A stretch of 26,266 bases of DNA from Anaeromyxobacter dehalogenans (lineage in GTDB: Bacteria; Myxococcota_A; UBA9042; DTJE01): the NCBI GenBank assembly GCA_020722625.1, contig DYKK01000002.1:1-26266 (forward strand), in the 5' to 3' direction. How positions within the stretch are numbered: position 1 is the stretch's first letter; each line of letters opens with the position of its first letter. Of the stretch, positions 4,882 through 26,266 are shown piece after piece. A program made the position numbers and the translations under genes. The notes below the pieces were generated by a model, which had not been told where the DNA came from, ran no database searches, and saw only the letters and a list, made by a program, of their open reading frames with translations.

Positions 4882-5913
4882 ATGGGGAATCTCCTGGCCG
4901 TGTTCGAGGCGGTCCTCGAGGTCGAGGCGCTCGTCTTCCTGCTGCACGACTTCGATGTCGGCCCGTTCTGGCGCGTCTTCCTGCCCCTGGCCGCGCACCT
5001 GGTCGCCCTGGCCTTGCTCGCGGTGGGCTTCCTGGGTCGCTGGGATTTCGCGAGGCCCCGGGACCGGGCCTGGGCCGTGACCGGGCTGTGCATGTCCCTG
5101 CCGTTGCCGATGCTCGGGTTCCTCGGGTTCGTGGGCCTGTACGCCCTGTATGCCTCGCGGCCGCGCGGGACGGGCGACCTTCTGAGGGACTTCGAGGACT
5201 ACATCGCGTACGACCCGGCCGCGGCCGCGGCCCTGCCCAGGCCCGTGGACTCGGACCGCTTCATCCTCGACGAGGTGGACGTGGCCCCCTTGCGAGACAT
5301 CCTCGCGGGGACCGACGTGGCGCTGAAGCGGGGGGCCATCCTCTCGCTCTCCTGGCTCCCCAGGCGCGAGGCGGTGAGCCTGCTCAAGACGGCGCTCGTG
5401 GACGAGAACCGCGAGATCCGCTACTACGCGGGGAACGCCCTGTCCGACATGGAACGCGAGTTCAACGACCGGATCTTCCGCCTCGTGCGCGAGGTCGAGC
5501 GCGCGCCTACCCGTGTCGAGCACCACATCAAACTGGCGGGCCTGATCCTCGACTACGCGGACATCGGGCTCCTGGACCGGGGCATGGTCCGGTACTTTGC
5601 GGACATCGGCCTCAAGGCGCTCGACAAGGCCACCCTGGTCGGGTCGTCGGACGGGAGACTCCTCGCGCTGTCGGGCCGGCTCTACCGCCTGTGCGGACAA
5701 CTGGAGCAGGCCGAACAGGCCCTGAAGCGACACCTGGACGCGAACCCGGGGGACCTGGAGGCCGCGGTGGCCCTGGCCGAGACCGCCTACGAGCGCGGCA
5801 ACGTCGCCCTGGCCCGGCAGGTCGTGGAGGAGGCCTGCGCCCGGTTCCCCGGGGAGCCGCGCCTCGCGGACCTGAGCGAGGTCCTCGGGGGAGCGCGGGA
5901 GGAGCCGGCGTGA
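4882..5913 (+). CDS. pelE: PelE-like inner-membrane protein with HEAT/TPR-like repeats
   Basis: Real start taken as MGNLLAVFE at 4882 inside track ORF 4117..5913. N-terminal TM helices (LAAHLVALALLAVG, LPLPMLGFLG). ALVDENREIRYYAGNALSDMEREFNDRI matches the PelE repeat pattern (ALxDxxxxVRxxAxxxL...NxRI). TPR-like C-terminus. Position between pelD and pelF. Confidence 0.8.
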   Translation: MGNLLAVFEAVLEVEALVFLLHDFDVGPFWRVFLPLAAHLVALALLAVGFLGRWDFARPRDRAWAVTGLCMSLPLPMLGFLGFVGLYALYASRPRGTGDLLRDFEDYIAYDPAAAAALPRPVDSDRFILDEVDVAPLRDILAGTDVALKRGAILSLSWLPRREAVSLLKTALVDENREIRYYAGNALSDMEREFNDRIFRLVREVERAPTRVEHHIKLAGLILDYADIGLLDRGMVRYFADIGLKALDKATLVGSSDGRLLALSGRLYRLCGQLEQAEQALKRHLDANPGDLEAAVALAETAYERGNVALARQVVEEACARFPGEPRLADLSEVLGGAREEPA

Positions 5914-7466
5914 AGACCGATGTCTGCCTGATCACGGAGGGTTCGTACCCGTTCGTCGTGGGCGGGGTCTCGACCTGGGTGCACGACCTCCTCACGAGCC
6001 TGAAGGACGTCTCGTTCTCCCTGGTGCACATCGGGGTCTCGCGGGAGACGGCGGAGCGTCCCCTGTACGAACTGCCGCCAAACGTCCTGGACTTCCGGCG
6101 GGTCCACCTGATGGACACGATCCAGTGGCGGGGACCGCGGGCGGGCCGGCGCCGGGAGGCCTGGTCGGACCTCGAGCGCTTCATCCGCGACCTTTCCCGC
6201 GGGGACCACTCCCTGCTGCCCGTGATGCTGCGGCGGTTCCAGCCGGGGGTCCCGGACGCCCTCACCCCGTACGACATCTTCCACGGGCGCGAGTTCTGGG
6301 ACATCCTGGTCCGCCTGTATCGCGAACACTTCGATGGTTTTTCGTTCATTGACTACTTCTGGACATTGCGATTTATCGCCCTCCCGCTGTTCCGGGTCCT
6401 GTACGCGGACATCCCCGACGCATCGCTGTATCACGCGACCTGCACGGGGTACGCGGGCCTGCTCGGGGTGCTGGCCGGCCTGCGCACGCGCTCGCCCCTG
6501 GTCCTCACCGAGCACGGGATCTACACGAACGAGCGGATGATCGAGATCACGCAGGCGCAGTGGATCTACCGGGAGAAGTCGGACTCCCCGGTCCCGACCC
6601 GGCAACTGGGCGCCTTGCAGAACCTGTGGATGCGCAAGTTCGAGGTCCTGTCGCGGATCGCGTACGACCACGCGAGCGCCATCTTCACCCTCTACGAGGG
6701 GAACCGCCAGATGCAGGTCCTCGGCGGCGCGAATCCGGACCGCACCGCCCTGATCCCGAACGGGATCGACCTGCCCCGCTTCGATGACATCTACCGGCGG
6801 CGCCGGGAGACCCCGAGGTCCGGTCCTCCGATGGTCGCGCTGGTCGGCCGGGTCACGCCGATCAAGGACGTCAAGACCTTTATCCGGGCCGCGAGGATGG
6901 TCATCGAGGAGAGGCCGGACGTCCGGTTCTATGTCCTGGGGACGACCGACGAGGACCCGGCCTACTTCGAGGAGTGCGAGCGCCTGGTCCGCGTCCTGTC
7001 GCTCCAGAAGAAGGTCCTGTTCCCCGGGTCCGTGGACATGTCGGAGTACTATCCGAGGATCGACTGCCTGGTCCTGACGAGCATCAGCGAGGCCCAGCCG
7101 TTCGTCCTGCTGGAGGCGATGCGGGCGGGGGTCCCGGTGGTGTGCACGAACGTGGGCGCCTGCGCGGAACTGGTCCACGGGTCCGGCCCGGAGGACGAGG
7201 CCATCGGGCGCGCCGGGGTCGTGACCAACATCCGGTCGCCCCGCGAGACCGCGGATGCCATCCTCGGGGTCCTGCGCGACACGGACCGGGCGCAGGCCAT
7301 GGGCGAGGCCGGTCACGAGCGGGTGGGCCGGTACTACGTGCGTTCGCGCATGATCGAGGCGTATCGCGACGTGTATCAGCGCTACTGCGGTCGGGGGACC
7401 CTGCTCCGCGACCACCCCGCGGTCTGGCCCGACGGCGAGAACACGCCCGCGCGGGTGGACGGGTAG
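5910..7466 (+). CDS. pelF: PelF GT4 family glycosyltransferase (DUF3492 N-terminal domain)
   Basis: GTG start overlapping the pelE stop (GTGA). Motifs DVCLITEGSYPFVVGGVSTW, LTEHGIYTNER, GRVTPIKDVKTFIRA and SISEAQPFVLLE (EX7E) are characteristic of PelF. Confidence 0.93.
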   Translation: MKTDVCLITEGSYPFVVGGVSTWVHDLLTSLKDVSFSLVHIGVSRETAERPLYELPPNVLDFRRVHLMDTIQWRGPRAGRRREAWSDLERFIRDLSRGDHSLLPVMLRRFQPGVPDALTPYDIFHGREFWDILVRLYREHFDGFSFIDYFWTLRFIALPLFRVLYADIPDASLYHATCTGYAGLLGVLAGLRTRSPLVLTEHGIYTNERMIEITQAQWIYREKSDSPVPTRQLGALQNLWMRKFEVLSRIAYDHASAIFTLYEGNRQMQVLGGANPDRTALIPNGIDLPRFDDIYRRRRETPRSGPPMVALVGRVTPIKDVKTFIRAARMVIEERPDVRFYVLGTTDEDPAYFEECERLVRVLSLQKKVLFPGSVDMSEYYPRIDCLVLTSISEAQPFVLLEAMRAGVPVVCTNVGACAELVHGSGPEDEAIGRAGVVTNIRSPRETADAILGVLRDTDRAQAMGEAGHERVGRYYVRSRMIEAYRDVYQRYCGRGTLLRDHPAVWPDGENTPARVDG

Positions 7467-7486
7467 GGTTTTCTTGAGGGGGAGGC

Positions 7487-8857
7487 ATGGCGGGGATCGG
7501 ATTCCGGTTGCGGGAGATGGCGGCCCGCAAGACCTTCACGGAGTGGCTCCGGCTCTACACCTACTCGGCCGTGATCTTCTCGGGGCCGTGGCTCATCTCG
7601 ATCCTCGCGCTCGCGGCGCTGTCCACCTTCGTGCTGCCCGCGATGCTGGAGGCGGATGTCCGTGTCTTCGTCGTGACCATCGTCTATGTCTACTGTTTCT
7701 CGCTCGTGACCACGGGGTTGATCCAGCTGGTCGTGACGCGCTACGTGTCCGACCAGTTCTACAGGCGCAACCCCGATGCCGTGGTGCCGACCTTCGTGGG
7801 GTCCGTGGCCGTCACGGTCCTGTTCCAGACCGTCGCCGGGTCCCTGGCCCTGTTCTTCGCGGACCTGGACCTCTTGTACAAGATCGTGGTCCTGGGCCTG
7901 TACGTGTCCATCAGCGTGGTCTGGATCGAGATGCTCTTCCTGTCCGCGGCCAAGGACTATGCCCACGTGGTGCTCGACTTCGCCGTGGGGTACCTTGCGT
8001 CCTTCATCGGCGGACAGGTCCTCGGGACGGTCTTCGGGACGGACGGGCTGGGGATCGGGTTCCTGACCGGACAGGTCCTGCTGATGGTCCTCCTGATGTA
8101 CCGCGTCTTCTCGGAGTACCGGTTCGGCCAGGGGTTCGACTTCGCCTTCCTGCGGTACATCGGCCGGTATCCGGCCCTGATGGCGACCGGCTTCTTCTAC
8201 AACACGGCCATCTGGATTGACAAGGTCCTGTTCTGGTACTCGCCTTCGGGCCTGCACGTCCACAGTTATTTCTACACGCACTTCCCGTACGACTCCGCGA
8301 TGTTCATCGCGTACGTCACCATCCTCCCCACCCTCGCGATCTTCCTGTTGCGCATCGAGACGGACTTCTACCTCCGCTACAAGAACTACTACGGAGCCAT
8401 CCTCCAGAAGGCCCCGCTCGACCGGATCCTCGAACGCAAAGGCGAGATGCGCGACGTGCTGCTCGCCGCGACCCGGACCTCGGCGATCTACCAGGGGGTC
8501 GTCACGAGCGCGATCTTCATCTTGATGCCGTTCATCGTGGCCCTGCTCGGGATCGACCCGGACCTGGCGCCGGTCTTCCGAGTCGCCGTGATCGGGGCCT
8601 TCTTCCACGCGGCCCTGGTCGTCGTGATGATCCTGCTCCTCTACTTCGACTTCCGAGGATCGGCCCTGTTCGTGTCCGCGGTGTTCCTGCTGTCGAACGC
8701 CACCTTCACGATGGTCACGACCTTCGGTTCGGAATCGTGGATGGGGTTCGGCTACCTCGGCGCCTGCGTCCTGTCCCTCGCGACCGGCCTCGCGGTCTTC
8801 GTCAACCGCTTTCGCAACCTCGAGTACCTGACCTTCATGCGACAGCCCCTGCGGTAG
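7487..8857 (+). CDS. pelG: PelG exopolysaccharide transporter (multi-pass membrane protein)
   Basis: Signature N-terminus MAGIGFRLR, plus SGPWLISI, FFYNTAIWIDKVLFW, YDSAMFIAY and ETDFY motifs; about 12 hydrophobic segments; RBS GAGGGGGAGG upstream. Confidence 0.95.
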   Translation: MAGIGFRLREMAARKTFTEWLRLYTYSAVIFSGPWLISILALAALSTFVLPAMLEADVRVFVVTIVYVYCFSLVTTGLIQLVVTRYVSDQFYRRNPDAVVPTFVGSVAVTVLFQTVAGSLALFFADLDLLYKIVVLGLYVSISVVWIEMLFLSAAKDYAHVVLDFAVGYLASFIGGQVLGTVFGTDGLGIGFLTGQVLLMVLLMYRVFSEYRFGQGFDFAFLRYIGRYPALMATGFFYNTAIWIDKVLFWYSPSGLHVHSYFYTHFPYDSAMFIAYVTILPTLAIFLLRIETDFYLRYKNYYGAILQKAPLDRILERKGEMRDVLLAATRTSAIYQGVVTSAIFILMPFIVALLGIDPDLAPVFRVAVIGAFFHAALVVVMILLLYFDFRGSALFVSAVFLLSNATFTMVTTFGSESWMGFGYLGACVLSLATGLAVFVNRFRNLEYLTFMRQPLR

Positions 8858-10056: not shown

Positions 10057-12048
10057 TCACTCCCATTGCAGGGCGGGCGCCGGCTTCTTCTTCGGCGCCG
10101 TGTGGCGCGCCGGGGGCTCCGGCCGCCTGGGGGGGGGCTTGCCCGCGGCCGGGCGGGTGGCCTCGGCCGTCCGGCCCCGCCCGACACCCGACCCCGTCAC
10201 GGTGGGCGCGGTCTTCCGGTCCAGCACGAGGCGGTGCAGGGTCCGGCCCGACCGGACCGCCTCGGCCGGGTCCACGGTCAGGCGGGACTCCTCGTACCCG
10301 TCCGCCACGAATCGGAGCGTGACCGGCGCGTCCCCCTCCCGGAGGGTCAGGATGAGGGGCGTGGCCCCGACCCTCCGGTCCTCCAGGAAGACCGCGGCGC
10401 CCGCCGGAGCGGTCTCGAAGGTCAGACTGACCTGGCGCGGGGGAGGAGGCTCGGGCGGCGGGGGCGGACCGGGACCTTGCGAAGGACCGCTCGGAGCGGG
10501 TTCGGGCGGGTTCGCCTGCGGACCCGCGGCGGGTCCGGAATCCGCCGTGACGCCGCTCGCGACCACCCCGCCGCCGTCGCGGCCCTGGATCAGGGTCGCG
10601 ATCCCCATGCCCGCAGCGCCCGCGGTCACGACCACCAGCGCGACCACCAGGACCTGCGTGACGCGGCGTGGGCCGGACCGGGGCCGGCTCGGGTGCGCCC
10701 GCGCGCCCGACACGACCGAGGGGGGCTCGATGCGGGTGGAATCATCCGGGCGGGAAACCGGGATCCCCCTGGTCGAGCGAGCGGCCGGGGCCTGGGCCGG
10801 ACCCGCGACCGCCACGGGCCGGCCGGGCTCCGAGTCGGACAGCGAGACCACGACCGTCTCTGCGTCCTCCTCCACCGCGGCCGGCGGCCGGGACCCGTCG
10901 CCCATGGGACCCATGGAGGCCCGCGACAGGTAGATGGTCGGCGCATCCCGGTCCACGGCCGGCCCGCTCGGCCCGGGCCGGCTGTCCCCCGACCCGACCG
11001 GCGGGACCGGGGGCGGCGAGACCGGCAGGGCCAGCGTGGCGCCCTCCGGGACCTCCTCCCGCCCCTGGAAGCCACCGTCCGGCGCCTGGTTGCGTGGTCG
11101 GAGGGCCTCGGCGCGGGTTCGCGCGGGTTCCGCCCCCAGTGGTGTCGGCGCGGGAGCGGCCACCACCGGGCGGGCCGGGACCGGCACGCCGGCCATGACC
11201 TCGTCGATCAGGCCGATCAGGGCCTCGGCCGACGCGGGACGGTGGTCGCGGTCCTTGTCGAGCAACGAGAACACGAGGGCCCGGACCGGGTCGGGAATGC
11301 CACCGGCCGGCCCGCCCAGCGGCGGAGGGGCGTCGTGGATGTGCCTCATGACCAGGGCCACGGGCGTCTCGGCCCGAAACGGTGGGTTTCCGGCGAGCAT
11401 CTCGTACAGGATCACCCCCAGCGAATACAGGTCCGACCGGCCGTCGAGGGTCCGGCCCAGGGCCTGCTCCGGCGACAGGTACAGGGGCGTCCCGCACACC
11501 AGTCCGGCCTGGGTCAGGGCCTCGGACTCGGGATGGCCTTGCAGGAACTTGGCGATCCCGAAGTCCAGGACCTTGACGAAGTCTTCCTCGCCGTAAATCT
11601 GCGTGATGAAGATGTTGTCGGGCTTGAGGTCGCGATGCACGAGGCCGTTCATGTGGGCCTCGGCCAGGGCCTTCGCGACCTGTCGCACGATGTTCAGGGC
11701 GCGGCGGACCGGCAAGACCCCCTCGCGGCGCAGGAGTTGCGTCAGGGTCTGGCCCTCCAGGAACTCCATCGCGAGATAGAGGTGTCCCTCGTCGGACCGC
11801 CCGAAGTCGAAGACCTTGATGGTGTTCGGGTGCTTGAGGCGGCTCGAGGCCCGGGCCTCCTGGTAGAAACGCTGGACCTGGCGCTCGTCCTGGGACATCT
11901 CGCGGTGCAGGACCTTGAGGGCCACGGTCTGGTTCATCGCGACGTGGACCGCCTTGTACACGGTCCCCATGCCCCCTCGGCCCACCAGGGCGGTGATCTG
12001 GTAGCGACTATCGAAAATCCGACCGATCAGGTCCGAGGTGTCCGACAT
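10057..12048 (-). CDS. Hanks-type Ser/Thr protein kinase with Pro-rich linker, one TM helix and C-terminal PEGA domain
   Basis: Motifs GRGGMGTVY, VALK, HRDLKPDN, DFGIAK, GTPLYLSPEQ, DGRSDLYSLG. TM helix VLVVALVVVTAGAAGMGIATLI. PEGA-like FETAPAGAAVFLEDRRVGATPL. Start taken at MSDTSDLIG. Confidence 0.93.
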   Translation of the reverse strand: MSDTSDLIGRIFDSRYQITALVGRGGMGTVYKAVHVAMNQTVALKVLHREMSQDERQVQRFYQEARASSRLKHPNTIKVFDFGRSDEGHLYLAMEFLEGQTLTQLLRREGVLPVRRALNIVRQVAKALAEAHMNGLVHRDLKPDNIFITQIYGEEDFVKVLDFGIAKFLQGHPESEALTQAGLVCGTPLYLSPEQALGRTLDGRSDLYSLGVILYEMLAGNPPFRAETPVALVMRHIHDAPPPLGGPAGGIPDPVRALVFSLLDKDRDHRPASAEALIGLIDEVMAGVPVPARPVVAAPAPTPLGAEPARTRAEALRPRNQAPDGGFQGREEVPEGATLALPVSPPPVPPVGSGDSRPGPSGPAVDRDAPTIYLSRASMGPMGDGSRPPAAVEEDAETVVVSLSDSEPGRPVAVAGPAQAPAARSTRGIPVSRPDDSTRIEPPSVVSGARAHPSRPRSGPRRVTQVLVVALVVVTAGAAGMGIATLIQGRDGGGVVASGVTADSGPAAGPQANPPEPAPSGPSQGPGPPPPPEPPPPRQVSLTFETAPAGAAVFLEDRRVGATPLILTLREGDAPVTLRFVADGYEESRLTVDPAEAVRSGRTLHRLVLDRKTAPTVTGSGVGRGRTAEATRPAAGKPPPRRPEPPARHTAPKKKPAPALQWE

Positions 12049-12084
12049 CCGCCGCCCCGCGGTTCGGGACCAGGGCACGAGCGC

Positions 12085-12093
12085 AGTATATCA
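12085..12093 (-). promoter_or_regulatory. Possible extended -10 promoter (TGaTATACT) for the kinase-PEGA gene pair
   Basis: Minus strand reads TG-A-TATACT about 37 nt upstream of the kinase ATG, an AT-rich island in GC-rich DNA. No recognisable -35. Confidence 0.4.
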
Positions 12094-12128
12094 TTTCGGT
12101 CCAAGGTCCCGGATCGCTTACCCACGAT

Positions 12129-12214
12129 CCGCCGTCCCGATCTCGGAAGAAGCACGGAACACCTTGATTTCTCGCGGTCTCGTGCCAGCCGCGACTTGGA
12201 AGTCGCGGCCCCAG
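12129..12214. repeat. 86-bp dispersed intergenic element, copy A; perfect hairpin at 12188-12209
   Basis: 76/86 identical by manual alignment to 26167-26252, same orientation. Hairpin GCCGCGACTT-GG-AAGTCGCGGC. Confidence 0.92.
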
Positions 12215-12284
12215 GGTGGTGAAATGAAACGTACCAGACTTCATGTATATTCGATGACTTGCGAAAATTGATCGCGGATTTCGG

Positions 12285-12770
12285 TCAAGGCTCCGTCACC
12301 CAGCGCGTCAGGAATTCGGCCTGACGGGCGCACTCCTTCTCGGTGTCCGCCAGGCCCATCTTCTCGGCCGCGCCGCCGATCAGGGGGATCTTGACCTGGA
12401 GCTCCGTGTGATACACGACCCGGGTCTTCCCGCCCTCGGGGAGGAACTCGACCCGGCCGGACAGGAAGACCTTGTCCGCCCCCATCGTGGGCGTGATCCG
12501 CCACGTCAGGACCCGCGCGGTCGGGTCGAGCACGTTCTCGTCCACGTATTCGTCCACGTCGGACTTGCGCAGGACGGCCGGGACGCGCGAGGGCTCGGTG
12601 GCCCGCGCCTTCAGCCGCACGCGGCCGTCCGGGTACTCCTCGCGCTCGAGGATCTCGACGGTCAACATCCCGGAATTCTTCCCCTTCTTCACATAGAAAT
12701 CCGGGTCCCGGTACGCCGCGATGACGCGCTCCACCGGGGCCGGGACCACGTGTTCGAAACGGACCTTCAT
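12285..12770 (-). CDS. DUF2505 family protein (SRPBCC/START-like fold)
   Basis: 161 aa; F-EH...PVERVIAAYRDPDF N-terminus and GRVEF...TRVVY...VKIPLIGG-AEK C-terminus typical of DUF2505; RBS GGGGAGG. Confidence 0.75.
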   Translation of the reverse strand: MKVRFEHVVPAPVERVIAAYRDPDFYVKKGKNSGMLTVEILEREEYPDGRVRLKARATEPSRVPAVLRKSDVDEYVDENVLDPTARVLTWRITPTMGADKVFLSGRVEFLPEGGKTRVVYHTELQVKIPLIGGAAEKMGLADTEKECARQAEFLTRWVTEP

Positions 12771-12829: not shown

Positions 12830-12843
12830 AGCCTCCGGCGTCG

Positions 12844-12885
12844 ACCGGGATCCGGGGTCGGGGGTCAGGCGTCCGGGGTCCGGGG
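12844..12885. repeat. Degenerate 7-mer tandem array (consensus TCCGGGG, 6 units)
   Basis: ACCGGGA TCCGGGG TCGGGGG TCAGGCG TCCGGGG TCCGGGG read directly. Confidence 0.8.
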
Positions 12886-12935
12886 TCGCGGTGGACGCGA
12901 ATCTGCCGTCAACAGACCGTCCCCCGCGTCCAACG

Positions 12936-12998
12936 TGGCCCTGGCACTGACACTGACACTGATACTGTCACCTGAACCTGTCCACGGAACCTGTCCAC
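12936..12998. repeat. Degenerate 6-mer tandem array (consensus TGACAC, 6 units) followed by a duplicated 12-mer GAACCTGTCCAC
   Basis: TGGCCC TGGCAC TGACAC TGACAC TGATAC TGTCAC (12936-12971); GAACCTGTCCAC at 12974-12985 and 12987-12998. Confidence 0.8.
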
Positions 12999-13144
12999 CG
13001 CCACTGCCTCTCTGGCAAATCCCTGAATGAGGCAAGGACCCCGATGATGGGAAGCGGTGCTCGCGTCTCCAGGGGCGCGACCCCTCGCCCCTCGCGGCCC
13101 GGTTCGGGTATGATCGGGGCCGTTCGACCGGGGGCAGAGGCGAC

Positions 13145-24476: not shown

Positions 24477-26063
24477 TCACCGCGGGAGTCCCACGAGCGC
24501 GCGCAGCGCGGAAAGGTAGGCGGGCTGGACCTTCTTCCCCGGGGACAGGCCCTGGTGGTACGACAGCTCCATGTCCTTCCACTGCTCCTCGGTCAGGAGG
24601 TAGCCGAGCCAGTCCTGGGTGATGCCCAGGATGATGGGGTTGCCGTACCCGGCCTCGACCAGGACCTCCGCGGCCGCCGCCCCGAAGGCCGGGAAGGACT
24701 CGCCCGGCATGGTCAGGAAGGTCAGGTCCCCGACGCGGGCCAGGCTGAACTCCGTGACCATGTCGGGCGGGTCGTCCGACAGGAGGGCCTCCGGGTCGCC
24801 CCAGGCGAAGGGGACCGCGGCCACCTTGGCCGCCAGCAGCAGCGTGGCGTTTGATGGATAGAATCCAAATATCTTGTGATGAAACTCAATCCCGGTCTCG
24901 GCCACCGGCTTTGCGTCCTTCATGGCTGCAATCGCGTTGTCCGCGACCTGGTAGCCCGTGCACGTGACCTTCATGAAGTCCGTGGGGGACAGGTCCGGGT
25001 CCTTCCAGCCGTCCGGATACGCCTCTTCCGAGAGCCCGCACTCCGTGGGGCGGTCCGGATACGTCCCGCCCAGGTTCCCGTTCATGAAGACCGCGACCCC
25101 GCCGAACTCTTGCTCCATCCGCAACCGGAACGGCCCGACCCAGTCGGACGACAGCCCGTTGTTCCTGGACCCGTAGGCGGTGGGGTGGCTGGACCAGCGG
25201 GTCCAGGTGAAGACCGGGGTGCCGTCGCCGGGCCGGACGCCGCGCACCACGAACAGGTCGCGGTCCTCGACCACGGGCGGGGTCCCGTCCGTGCCGTTCG
25301 GCGAGGACCCCTTGGCCCACGTCAGGACCACGTCGTCCAGGGCCCCGAAGGCCTCGGCCACGGCGTCCACGGTCCGCTCGCGCAGGAGCGCGATGTACGC
25401 CTCGTCGCGGGGCACCCCGAACATCGGCCCCCACAGCCCCGCGGTGTCCGGGGCGGCGTGGGAGTGGCTCGCGCCGACCATCAGGCGCGGGCCGTCGAAG
25501 AACACGCCGAAGTCCTGGTACAACCGCATCTGGACCGCCTCGTGCATCAGGCGCTGGTCGCACAGGAACAGCCCCACCGAGTCCACCCCCGCGAAGGCCA
25601 CGACCTCGCCGGTCTCCGTGTCCGCAAGGACGACCACGTGCACCTGAAGCGGGTCGTGCACCCCTTCGGACTTGCGGCAGAGTTTCGCGTCCCCCCCGCA
25701 GAAGCCGAAGCCCCCCATGAAGACGTCGTACGCCGGCGTGATGTCGCGCCAGGCCGCGGCGGCGGCGTAGCGCGTGGTGAACGCCTTGCCCGCGGGGAGC
25801 CTGGGCAGGGACGGCCAGTCCACGTCGGGGGGCGTGTCCGCGGCCACGTCCTCGCCCGGGGGGGCCTCGTCGGGCAACGCGCTCGCGTCGTCGGGCGATG
25901 GGGCATCCCCGACCGCCTCGACGGCGTCCGGGACCTCCGACGCGGTGTCGGCCGTCGCGTCAGACCCGGGGCCGGGGTCCTTGGCGCCCCCGTTTCCGCC
26001 ACCGCACGCGAGCCACCCGCCCGTGACCACGACCGCCCACGCGACCACCCACTGTCTCGTCAT
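24477..26063 (-). CDS. Neutral/alkaline ceramidase family lipoprotein
   Basis: Start MTRQWVVAWAVVVTGGWLAC at 26063 with RBS GGAGG and lipobox WLAC; acidic Pro/Ala/Asp linker; family motifs ASHSHAAPD, SHPT, FMNGNLGG, PGE and DWLGYLL...Y. Confidence 0.78.
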   Translation of the reverse strand: MTRQWVVAWAVVVTGGWLACGGGNGGAKDPGPGSDATADTASEVPDAVEAVGDAPSPDDASALPDEAPPGEDVAADTPPDVDWPSLPRLPAGKAFTTRYAAAAAWRDITPAYDVFMGGFGFCGGDAKLCRKSEGVHDPLQVHVVVLADTETGEVVAFAGVDSVGLFLCDQRLMHEAVQMRLYQDFGVFFDGPRLMVGASHSHAAPDTAGLWGPMFGVPRDEAYIALLRERTVDAVAEAFGALDDVVLTWAKGSSPNGTDGTPPVVEDRDLFVVRGVRPGDGTPVFTWTRWSSHPTAYGSRNNGLSSDWVGPFRLRMEQEFGGVAVFMNGNLGGTYPDRPTECGLSEEAYPDGWKDPDLSPTDFMKVTCTGYQVADNAIAAMKDAKPVAETGIEFHHKIFGFYPSNATLLLAAKVAAVPFAWGDPEALLSDDPPDMVTEFSLARVGDLTFLTMPGESFPAFGAAAAEVLVEAGYGNPIILGITQDWLGYLLTEEQWKDMELSYHQGLSPGKKVQPAYLSALRALVGLPR

Positions 26064-26166
26064 GCCTCGCCTCCACCCGGGTCCGGACCGGGTCGCCACC
26101 GCCCCGGTCGCGACAACGGTACGCGATTTCAGGTTCCCGTGTCCACGGGGTTCACCGGGCCACGGC

Positions 26167-26252
26167 CCGCCGTCCCGACCTCGGAAGAACGGCGGAACAC
26201 CTTGATTTGTTACGGTCTCGTGCCGGCCGCGAATTGGAATTCGCGGCCCCAG
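26167..26252. repeat. 86-bp dispersed intergenic element, copy B; perfect hairpin at 26225-26248
   Basis: 76/86 identical to 12129-12214. Hairpin GGCCGCGAATT-GG-AATTCGCGGCC. Confidence 0.92.
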
Positions 26253-26266
26253 CATCGTTGGGGTTG

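What the first reader, a model, noticed from the sequence alone, without database searches (positions are those of the whole stretch)
12129..12214. 86-bp repeated non-coding element with a compensatory base-pair change in its hairpin
Seen: two ungapped copies 14 kb apart differ at 10 of 86 positions. Two of the differences are exactly paired in a perfect inverted repeat: copy A GCCGCGA[C]TT-GG-AA[G]TCGCGGC (C12195:G12202) versus copy B GCCGCGA[A]TT-GG-AA[T]TCGCGGC (A26233:T26240). Both copies sit in the same orientation about 80 and about 103 nt upstream of a minus-strand gene (kinase; ceramidase-like lipoprotein). An invariant AT-richer core CGGAACACCTTGATTT is also shared. No U-tract, so not an intrinsic terminator. 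Inference: covariation indicates selection on structure or dyad symmetry. Candidates are an unannotated cis-regulatory RNA leader, a REP/MITE-like element, or a palindromic operator/recombination site.
Basis: partly seen in the sequence, partly recalled or inferred. Interest (0 to 1): 0.78.

Follow-up and report, generated by a model that had tools for sequence, protein, structure and literature searches.

The report
Mobile mini-transposon built around a palindrome
The 86-base repeat is the left part of a roughly 165-base non-coding jumping element present in about 200 copies in this uncultured bacterium, and its hairpin is a separate, older palindromic repeat; this is an ordinary kind of element, but it moved recently.

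Summary
In detail: two copies, 10 differences in 86 nt, and a paired C:G to A:T change in a perfect palindrome. The unit was under-measured. Copy A is a 163-nt miniature inverted-repeat transposable element (MITE, here 'M1', window 12122-12284). It has imperfect terminal inverted repeats and usually 4-5 bp target-site duplications. The 3.4-Mb metagenome-assembled genome gives 303 HMM hits, about 200 elements. Contigs of closely related populations in three other metagenomes join 12121 directly to 12289, an exact empty site, and the same-genus genome also lacks the element at this locus. Orientation relative to genes is unbiased, there is no Rfam match, and the family was not found in 40 relatives. 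This is not a cis-regulatory leader.

The hairpin is an independent REP-like palindrome, GCCGCGA-NNN-GG-NNN-TCGCGGC. It has 103 sites here and 26 in the same-genus genome, which lacks M1. Its inner pairs vary but stay complementary, so the covariation is real. The two window copies, however, carry two different palindrome types in different mosaic contexts: copy A is L-palindrome-R and copy B is L-palindrome-'Z'. Hairpin-less M1 copies still spread. The palindrome loop commonly hosts a nested 76-nt three-way-junction element ('X') that is shared by several genera. No transposase partner was found.

Verdict: a new member of a known kind.

The parts
12122..12288 (+). Inserted DNA of copy A: the MITE 'M1' (12122-12284) plus 4 nt (TCAA).
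   Evidence: Contigs of runs X2, X3 and X4 join 12121 to 12289 ('skips 167'). The BLAST coverage plateau is 12121-12284.
12122..12134 (+). Left terminal inverted repeat, CCACGATCCGCCG.
   Evidence: The information profile of 41 aligned copies starts here. It pairs with the reverse complement of the right end (family consensus CCCAcgATCCGCCA versus CCCAaaATCCGCCA).
12122..12187 (+). L module.
   Evidence: HMM positions 3-68. It is shared by copies A and B and by about 110 copies that continue into R, X, Z or Y modules.
12188..12209 (.). REP-like palindrome, C:G type: GCCGCGACTT-GG-AAGTCGCGGC.
   Evidence: There are 103 such 22-mers in the genome, against 0 for the reversed control pattern. The stem is 93% conserved against 86% for the rest of the element. 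It is the only robust helix in RNAalifold.
12210..12284 (+). R module, AT-richer, ending in the right TIR TCGCGGATTTCGG (12272-12284).
   Evidence: HMM positions 92-167.
12285..12288 (+). TCAA: a degenerate copy of the target TTAC (12117-12120). It supplies the stop codon (TGA) of the minus-strand DUF2505 gene.
   Evidence: The empty allele reads ..GCTTAC|GGCTCC... Reading the minus strand gives CCG TAA in the empty allele and CCT TGA in the filled one.
26160..26225 (+). L module of copy B.
   Evidence: the repeat finder D2 and an nhmmer hit at 26160-26256 covering HMM positions 3-99.
26226..26247 (.). REP-like palindrome, A:T type: GCCGCGAATT-GG-AATTCGCGGC. The stem extends by G26225:C26248.
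   Evidence: This type has 29 perfect sites genome-wide.
26248..26266 (+). Start of a 'Z' module (CCCAGCATCGTTGGGGTTG...), cut by the contig end. It is not the R module of copy A.
   Evidence: The same tail follows A:T palindromes on C22, C165, C225, C318, C405, C414, C467 and others.
10057..12047 (-). Ser/Thr protein kinase gene (Pkinase + PEGA domains), downstream of copy A on the minus strand.
   Evidence: Pfam. The start position follows the gene call on the sister assembly.
12285..12770 (-). DUF2505 / Polyketide_cyc2-like gene. Its stop codon abuts the MITE.
   Evidence: Pfam. Synteny with G001.
24477..26063 (-). Putative lipoprotein with a weak neutral-ceramidase N-terminal match, downstream of copy B.
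   Evidence: Pfam E = 3.4e-5, below the gathering score.

Best explanation
The repeat is a non-autonomous DNA transposon, a MITE I call 'M1', of about 165 nt with the layout TIR-L module-palindrome-R module-TIR. A transposase supplied in trans presumably recognises the shared termini (CCACGATCCGCC...GGCGGATTTGGG), makes a 4-5 bp staggered cut at the target and inserts the element; this step is inferred. M1 expanded recently in this lineage to roughly 200 copies. It is still polymorphic between near-identical populations. The central hairpin is not specific to M1. It is a REP-like palindromic unit that predates M1 in the genus and was incorporated into several mosaic repeat families. Its dyad symmetry is maintained: inner pairs change only in complementary fashion. 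Yet it is dispensable for M1 mobility. In this genome the palindrome's loop also commonly holds a second small structured element, X. The two window copies share the L module and a palindrome but are different mosaics. Any effect on the neighbouring kinase and lipoprotein genes is incidental to where the element landed.
For: Copy number and boundaries: 303 nhmmer hits, 66 of them near full length, merging to 297 elements of which 134 lie at contig edges. M1 covers 0.89% of the genome, and 160 of 1016 contig ends lie within 100 nt of a hit. TIRs are visible. TSDs: 26 of 41 copies have a junction duplication of at least 4 nt, against a mean of 4.1 and a maximum of 12 in 2000 shuffles. An exact empty site (12121 joined to 12289) occurs in contigs of three other metagenomes whose flanks are about 95-99% identical. 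The same-genus genome keeps synteny with a 26-nt gap where this genome has 193 nt. Orientation relative to flanking genes is unbiased: 9, 7, 8 and 4 in the four classes. There is no Rfam match. The family was not found by blastn in 40 relatives. Summed contig depth over the element against the flanks is 5180-8726 versus 20 in X1, 807-1169 versus 12 in X2, and about 0 versus 13 in X4. Palindrome independence: 26 sites in G001, which lacks M1, with inner variants AGT/ACT, ACT/AGT and AAT/ATT inside similar mosaics. Covariation: pair 8 is C:G in 76 copies, A:T in 20, T:A in 2 and G:C in 1, with 2 mismatches; pair 3 is C:G in 95 and G:C in 6, with 0 mismatches. Hairpin-less copies: five 132-134-nt copies at different loci cluster together (SH-aLRT 87) and three more fall elsewhere on the tree. 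X nesting: 39 of 42 X 5' ends abut a palindrome stem or another X.
Against: No autonomous element with matching TIRs was found. IS1380 gave no hit. The only DDE_Tnp_1 and rve contigs (C62, C323) lack the terminus, and no Y1/RAYT was found. The genome is a 92%-complete, 508-contig assembly that breaks at repeats. The window's own copy A lacks an intact TSD (TTAC versus TCAA). The gene-orientation test rests on a crude home-made GC3 gene caller with only 28 informative elements. The clade of hairpin-less copies has modest support on a short alignment, and recurrent deletion between the 7-nt direct repeats GTCGCGG could mimic spread. No RNA data exist, so an added RNA-level role such as transcript stabilisation cannot be excluded.
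Confidence: 0.9

Rival explanations
1. The element is a cis-regulatory RNA leader or riboswitch-like 5' UTR structure that controls the downstream minus-strand genes. On this reading the compensatory change reflects selection on RNA structure.
For: Both window copies lie 80-105 nt upstream of minus-strand genes in the same orientation. The hairpin shows compensated changes.
Against: The element reads L to R on the plus strand while both genes are on the minus strand. There are about 200 copies with no orientation bias. TSDs and an exact empty site show it is an insertion. It is absent from the orthologous kinase upstream region in G001 and in X2-X4. There is no Rfam hit. Only one helix is supported in the 165-nt unit.
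Confidence: 0.02
2. The palindrome is the functional part, as a host-beneficial REP-type site. In transcripts it would act as a 3'-exonuclease barrier, mRNA stabiliser or Rho-dependent attenuator between genes. In DNA it would be a binding site for gyrase, nucleoid proteins or a dimeric regulator. That function would maintain its symmetry.
For: The stem is more conserved (93%) than the rest of the element (86%). Inner pairs change only in compensated fashion in two species. Copy A sits between two co-directional genes, directly after a stop codon. REP sequences have such roles in Proteobacteria (established knowledge; reviewed in PMC3733652).
Against: There are no expression data (one search lists no RNA runs). 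There is no U tract. The hairpin has been deleted repeatedly without preventing spread. G.T intermediates are rare, which fits DNA-level pairing or templated quasi-palindrome correction as well as it fits selection. The outer 7 bp are invariant in sequence, not merely in pairing, which fits protein or enzyme recognition as well as RNA.
Confidence: 0.2
3. The palindrome is primarily a recombination or insertion target: a landing pad for element X and a junction for module exchange. The mosaic families (L-R, L-X-R, L-Z, Y) would arise by insertion into its loop or recombination at it.
For: 63 L-module hits stop in the middle of the hairpin and continue into X (either orientation), Y or Z. 28 of 42 X units abut a palindrome stem of two different host families, and 11 more abut another X. 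The A:T state is scattered on the L-module tree, with 9 changes against 10 in shuffles. Precedents for REPs or ISs nested in palindromes are given in PMC3733652.
Against: In other genera X occurs singly, without an obvious flanking palindrome. The alternative, that L-X-R is ancestral and the simple hairpin is what is left after X is deleted between its terminal G runs, is not excluded: loop variants such as ACTGGGAAGT fit both readings. The L tree is star-like, so lack of clustering is weak evidence. No recombinase or transposase is linked to the palindrome.
Confidence: 0.45

Closest known systems
Bacterial MITEs such as Correia/NEMIS elements of Neisseria, ERIC/IRU of enterobacteria, RUP of pneumococcus and Nezha of cyanobacteria
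   Same: Small size (about 165 nt), non-coding, terminal inverted repeats, short target-site duplications, tens to hundreds of dispersed and mostly intergenic copies, insertion polymorphism between close strains, length variants from internal deletions or insertions, and a lineage-specific burst.
   Different: No sequence similarity to any of them was tested or claimed. The cognate insertion sequence is unknown. A 4-5 bp TSD with 'CC' termini is compatible with several IS families, but IS1380 and IS701 searches gave no partner. The centre of the element is an independent REP-like palindrome that hosts another element.
REP sequences and BIMEs (bacterial interspersed mosaic elements); GTAG/CGTC-tagged palindromes (Di Nocera et al. 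2013, PMC3733652)
   Same: The 22-nt palindrome is high-copy and extragenic, is shared by related species with stem and loop subtypes, and has a (C/T)CCA-type 3' tail. It is combined with other short motifs into mosaics. Other small repeats are nested inside palindromes, as reported for Thermomicrobium roseum and Halothiobacillus neapolitanus.
   Different: By inspection there is no GTAG or CGTC tag in the canonical position. No RAYT/Y1 transposase was found in this genome or in G001, G005 or G011. Here the palindrome travels inside a TIR/TSD element, whereas REP and REPIN mobility is thought to be mediated by RAYT through single-stranded DNA.
   Same: A small mobile unit (X) is found almost only inside palindrome loops or next to its own kind. 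This gives Russian-doll stacks and tandem arrays.
   Different: X is only 60-90 nt. It folds as a three-way junction with a conserved P3 + GATAG core. It has no recognised transposase, and in other genera it also occurs outside obvious palindromes.

Membership tests
MITE (non-autonomous DNA transposon) | Short (under about 500 bp) and without coding capacity | tested here: met
   163-167 nt. The only ORF is a 15-codon frame in R with no sign of constraint.
MITE (non-autonomous DNA transposon) | Terminal inverted repeats | tested here: met
   CCCAcgATCCGCCA versus the reverse complement of the right end, CCCAaaATCCGCCA. About 11-12 of 13-14 positions match in the consensus.
MITE (non-autonomous DNA transposon) | Target-site duplication of fixed short length | tested here: met
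   26 of 41 copies have a duplication of at least 4 nt, against 4.1 expected (maximum 12 in 2000 shuffles). 11 of 41 have a 5-mer, against 1.1 expected. The TSD is not intact at the window copy (TTAC versus TCAA).
MITE (non-autonomous DNA transposon) | Many dispersed copies and presence/absence polymorphism (empty sites) | tested here: met
   303 hits, about 200 elements. An exact empty site occurs in X2, X3 and X4, and the element is absent from the syntenic locus in G001.
MITE (non-autonomous DNA transposon) | A cognate autonomous IS with the same TIRs | tested here: inconclusive
   None was found. NF033539 gave no hit, and the PF01609, NF033540 and PF00665 hits on C62 and C323 lack the terminus. 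The assembly is fragmented and 92% complete.
REP / BIME | A 20-40 nt imperfect palindrome, high-copy and extragenic, combined with other motifs into mosaics | tested here: met
   103 sites against 0 for the control pattern. Mosaics with the L, R, X, Y and Z modules. 26 sites in G001.
REP / BIME | A conserved unpaired GTAG or CGTC tag at one end | tested here: not met
   By inspection the flanks are ...GTGCC(A/G)-stem or GACG(C/T)-stem on the 5' side and (C/T)CCAG on the 3' side. There is no GTAG or CGTC in the canonical 5' position.
REP / BIME | An associated RAYT (Y1/HUH) transposase | tested here: inconclusive
   PF01797 gave no hit in G000, G001, G005 or G011. There were 2 IS200-type hits, only in G008. 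The genomes are incomplete.
Cis-regulatory RNA leader / riboswitch | A match to a curated RNA family, or a multi-helix fold supported by covariation | tested here: not met
   Rfam gathering mode on the window and E <= 1 mode on 8 loci gave nothing. Only the central hairpin is supported.
Cis-regulatory RNA leader / riboswitch | Fixed position and orientation in 5' UTRs, conserved at orthologous loci | tested here: not met
   Orientation classes are 9, 7, 8 and 4. The element is absent from the orthologous locus in G001 and in X2-X4.
Intrinsic terminator | A GC-rich stem followed by a U tract | tested here: not met
   The scan of 11900-12500 found 0 terminator-like sites. The stem is followed by CCCAGGG.

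The most novel reading that the evidence does not exclude
The palindrome is a dedicated landing pad for element X. X is a 60-90-nt unit that folds as a three-way junction (P1/P2/P3 with an invariant P3-GATAG core). It shows only Watson-Crick to Watson-Crick compensatory changes, forms tandem arrays, is shared by at least three genera of the family, and has no RAYT or other recognisable transposase nearby. X could represent an undescribed class of structure-dependent mini mobile element that is recognised or inserted as folded single-stranded DNA, or a self-processing RNA. The M1 MITE would then serve as its vehicle.
Probability: 0.2. Interest if true: 0.6.

Novelty: new member of a known kind. 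Interest (0 to 1): 0.35.

Why it matters
It removes a false lead: an apparent covarying 'RNA leader' is really a mobile repeat. It also explains why this genome assembles so poorly, since about one contig end in six lies at a copy. The exact filled and empty alleles in near-identical populations from different sites make M1 a usable marker of very recent transposition and strain divergence in an uncultured lineage. The layered system (a genus-level palindrome, a species-level MITE built around it, and a family-level structured element nested in its loop) is a compact natural case for studying how REP-like palindromes are maintained, how they act as insertion targets and how mosaic intergenic repeats are assembled. 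The scan has noted similar nested-palindrome systems in other phyla, which suggests the phenomenon is widespread and under-described rather than unique.

Tried and rejected
- **Rfam:** gathering mode on the window and E <= 1 mode on eight mosaic loci gave only a spurious mir-678 hit.
- **Autonomous partner:** IS1380, IS701, DDE_Tnp_1, rve and Y1 family searches in the own genome found no element carrying the MITE terminus. A search for long elements bounded by the TIR motif gave 121 pairs, mostly separate MITEs, and I did not resolve them.
- **Subfamily tree of L modules:** the tree is star-like and the A:T state is not clustered (9 changes against 10 in shuffles), so it cannot distinguish one origin from shuffling.
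- **Mini-ORF in the R module (MKRSRFHVYSKNCGN):** it is intact in 80 of 96 anchored copies, but many changes are non-synonymous. I judged it uninformative.
- **Sigma-70 promoter scan:** one weak plus-strand match inside R (ATGAAA-16-TATATT), not conserved in the family consensus.
- **GGAAC-N16-GTCT in the L module:** this is an ECF-sigma-like word pair. I noted it but could not test it.
- **Gene caller:** the first versions of my GC3 gene caller picked shadow frames and were discarded.
- **A correction to my own reading:** I first read the G001 comparison as showing that the insertion replaced the last codons of the DUF2505 gene. The exact empty allele shows the protein end (..WVTEP*) is unchanged, and the difference from G001 is species divergence.
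- **Taxonomy:** this stayed unresolved. A PelG-like protein was uninformative. Only a co-occurring MAG that carries the element is labelled Planctomycetota.
- **RNA evidence:** no RNA runs hold the locus.

Full report
**1. The observation**

The two copies exist as described. The repeat finder reports 12122-12214 versus 26160-26252, 93 nt at 87% identity. Two of them are the paired change C12195:G12202 versus A26233:T26240, inside perfect palindromes: GCCGCGACTT-GG-AAGTCGCGGC at 12188-12209 and GCCGCGAATT-GG-AATTCGCGGC at 26226-26247. There is no U tract after the stem. The whole window has no Rfam match at gathering thresholds.

**2. True extent and copy number**

A search of the window's own genome immediately gave more than 40 near-identical copies. 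The genome is a MAG of 3.40 Mb in 508 contigs, 91.8% complete and 70% G+C.

With the genome in the Python box, BLAST coverage forms a plateau of 120-157 hits from 12121 to 12284 and falls to 1 outside it. An iterated nhmmer profile of 167 positions finds 303 hits, 66 of them near full length. These merge into 297 elements:
- 73 have both ends.
- 134 are cut by contig edges.
- 45 are internal right-only pieces and 33 are internal left-only pieces.

The family covers 0.89% of the genome, and 160 of the 1016 contig ends lie within 100 nt of a copy. This repeat is therefore a main reason the assembly is fragmented. Full-length copies are on average 77% identical pairwise (range 54-97%), so old and young copies coexist.

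**3. It is a transposon-derived MITE**

Aligned full-length copies lose all conservation outside CCACGATCCGCC...GGCGGATTTGGG. The two ends are imperfect inverted repeats.

In 26 of 41 copies the junctions carry a direct duplication of at least 4 nt (tcggg/tcggg, tgcga/tgcga, cttgc/cttgc, ccagg/ccagg and others). Shuffled pairings give a mean of 4.1 and a maximum of 12 in 2000 trials. Eleven copies carry 5-mers, against 1.1 expected.

The decisive evidence comes from other assemblies and runs:
- Two independent assemblies of the same population carry the element at the same place.
- Contigs from three other metagenomes join 12121 directly to 12289, skipping exactly 167 nt. These are X2 (subsurface), X3 (hot spring) and X4. 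Their flanks differ from the window by roughly 1-5%.
- The same-genus reference genome G001 keeps the DUF2505-kinase synteny, with a 26-nt gap where this genome has 193 nt.

Summed contig depth over the element against its flanks is 5180-8726 versus 20 in the source run X1, 807-1169 versus 12 in X2, 65-75 versus 5 in X3, and about 0 versus 13 in X4. These sums are not copy numbers. They do show that the family is abundant in some close relatives and missing or diverged in another.

blastn did not find the family in 40 relatives, including G001. A scan of about 186,000 species genomes for the 21-nt R-module core found it only in one other MAG from the same cave sample. Its depositor labels that MAG Blastopirellula (Planctomycetota), and its flanks are unrelated to this genome.

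**4. Not a leader RNA**

I used a GC3-based ORF caller to place the elements relative to genes. It is crude, with about 78% coding coverage. For 28 elements with two assignable neighbours, the orientation classes in the element's frame are:
- both neighbours antiparallel to the element: 9
- both parallel: 7
- divergent: 8
- convergent: 4

The window copies read L to R on the plus strand, while both 'downstream' genes are on the minus strand. RNAalifold on 47 full copies supports only the central hairpin plus a weak long-range helix without compensatory changes. Rfam at E <= 1 on eight representative mosaic loci gives nothing.

**5. The hairpin is an independent REP-like palindrome with real covariation**

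In an unbiased HMM alignment of about 101 copies the stem is 93% conserved against 86% for the L and R modules.
- Pair 8 is C:G in 76 copies, A:T in 20, T:A in 2 and G:C in 1, with only 2 mismatches.
- Pair 3 is C:G in 95 copies and G:C in 6, with no mismatch.
- Pair 9 is looser: T:A in 68, C:G in 7, C.A in 19 and T.G in 6.

Genome-wide there are 103 sites of GCCGCGA-N3-N2-N3-TCGCGGC, against 0 for the reversed control pattern. Of these, 63 have perfectly complementary inner triplets, against a shuffle mean of 30 and a maximum of 43. They fall almost entirely into two types, CTT/AAG (33 sites) and ATT/AAT (29 sites).

G001 lacks M1 but has 26 sites (control 0). Its inner triplets are different yet again complementary: AGT/ACT, ACT/AGT and AAT/ATT. 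They sit in comparable mosaics, some followed by the same (C/T)CCAGGG tail.

So the palindrome predates M1, and its symmetry is maintained across species. Selection for a hairpin or cruciform and templated quasi-palindrome correction both remain possible causes.

**6. The two window copies are different mosaics**

The A:T palindrome is characteristic of another module, 'Z': the palindrome followed by CCCAGCATCGTTGGGGTTGGTCGT..CGCGACG, often in arrays bounded by two palindromes. Copy B is L + A:T palindrome + Z and then the contig ends. Copy A is L + C:G palindrome + R.

Of about 110 L modules:
- 38 continue through a simple hairpin into R.
- 36 continue into element X, 28 in one orientation and 8 in the other.
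- 8 continue into Z.
- 4 continue into 'Y'.
- The rest are unclassified.

On a tree of L modules the A:T state is not clustered (9 changes against 10 in shuffles). The tree is star-like, so this is only weak evidence for module shuffling.

**7. The hairpin is dispensable for M1 mobility**

Eight copies of 132-134 nt lack the palindrome. The deletion lies between two GTCGCGG direct repeats. On a tree built without the hairpin columns, five of them, at different loci, form a group (SH-aLRT 87) and three fall elsewhere. The hairpin was therefore lost more than once, and one hairpin-less lineage apparently kept spreading. This inference has moderate support.

**8. Local consequences of copy A**

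The empty allele reads ..GGATCGCTTAC|GGCTCCGTC.. . On the minus strand the DUF2505 gene ends GAG CCG TAA there. The insertion lies inside the last sense codon. The 4 nt after the MITE (TCAA, where a TSD copy TTAC is expected) rebuild the end as GAG CCT TGA, so the protein is unchanged.

Two silent differences within 4 nt, next to flanks that are about 99% identical, are unexplained.

The element's left end is 75 nt upstream of the kinase ATG (12047). It lies just beyond a block, CAGTATATCATTTCGGT, that is conserved in G001 and whose reverse complement contains TATACT, a likely -10 box. The insertion may therefore have displaced upstream promoter DNA of the kinase. This is untested.

**9. What mobilises it**

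No partner was found. IS1380 gave no hit. The DDE_Tnp_1, IS701-like and rve hits on C62 and C323 have no ATCCGCC terminus. No Y1/RAYT was found.

Several other small repeat families in the genome share the same 12-nt terminus. This points to one transposase serving a superfamily of MITEs. That transposase is either unassembled or lost.

**10. Element X (side finding)**

X is 60-90 nt long. Twenty units align to a three-way junction that RNAalifold predicts independently:
- P1: CCCCATCT / AGATGGGG
- P2: a variable hairpin
- P3: GGACGTGCC-GGT-GGCACGTCC
- a joiner, GAT(AG)

In the alignment 95.5% of cells are paired. There are 32 double changes against 9.7 in shuffles (0 of 500 as high), and no one-sided changes at all.

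A covariance model finds 38 copies in this genome, 37 in G001, 4 in G008, 6 in G011 and 1 in G005. It finds none in the other 36 relatives.

In this genome 39 of 42 X 5' ends abut a palindrome stem or another X: 24 the REP-type stem, 4 a second host family and 11 another X. In other genera X occurs singly. There is no Rfam match and no RAYT in most carriers.

Di Nocera et al. (PMC3733652) describe REPs nested in small palindromes. Earlier notes of this scan describe similar Russian-doll systems in other phyla. I did not test those notes.

**11. Verdict**

The element is a new, lineage-specific member of a known kind, with clear evidence of recent activity. The palindrome's covariation is genuine, but it belongs to a REP-like unit rather than to an RNA leader.

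Noticed in passing
Not in the window. Examples: G000:C278:14652-14725 (locus L063), G000:C141:3729-3925 (L051), G001:C79:15830-15918 (L080).: Element X is a 60-90-nt unit that folds as a three-way junction with strong compensatory variation and no G.U-type intermediates. It is nested in palindrome loops or in tandem arrays. It occurs in this genome (38 copies), the same-genus genome (37) and two other genera. It has no Rfam match and no associated Y1 transposase in most carriers.
   Followed up: partly
window 12834-13014: A second high-copy mosaic repeat lies in the DUF2505 / DUF748-gene intergenic region, with up to 261 BLAST hits in the genome. It is made of CCGGGGT heptad tracts, CACTGACACTG repeats and GAACCTGTCC motifs. 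Read depth over it is also strongly elevated in runs X1-X3.
   Followed up: no
window 12117-12120 and 12285-12288: The expected target-site duplication of copy A is degenerate (TTAC versus TCAA). The two differences are both silent for the overlapping end of the DUF2505 gene (CCG TAA becomes CCT TGA), although the flanks are about 99% identical to the empty allele.
   Followed up: partly
G000 genome-wide, e.g. C87:1045, C159:3585, C412:6853-7103, C163:8752-8998, C99:4680: At least four other small repeat families begin with the same terminus as M1 (CCACGATCCGCC or CC[AG]AATCCGCC). This suggests a superfamily of MITEs served by one transposase.
   Followed up: no
window 12156-12183 (L module); family consensus positions 37-61: The L module contains GGAAC-N16-GTCT, which resembles the -35/-10 words of ECF-sigma promoters and would read toward the hairpin and the R module. 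No expression data were available to test it.
   Followed up: no
window 12083-12099; G001 locus L047, about 1456-1477: The block CAGTATATCATTTCGGT between the MITE and the kinase start is conserved in the same-genus genome. Its reverse complement contains TATACT, a likely -10 box of the kinase promoter. The MITE sits about 25 nt beyond it.
   Followed up: no
window 12224-12271 (R module): A 15-codon ORF (family consensus MKRSRFHVYSKNCGN*) preceded by GGTGGTGA is intact in 80 of 96 anchored copies. It shows many amino-acid changes, so it is probably fortuitous.
   Followed up: partly
window 7487-8857: The gene product scores 0.99 by protein-language-model features to PelG (a Pel exopolysaccharide transporter). 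The window may therefore hold part of a pel-like locus.
   Followed up: no
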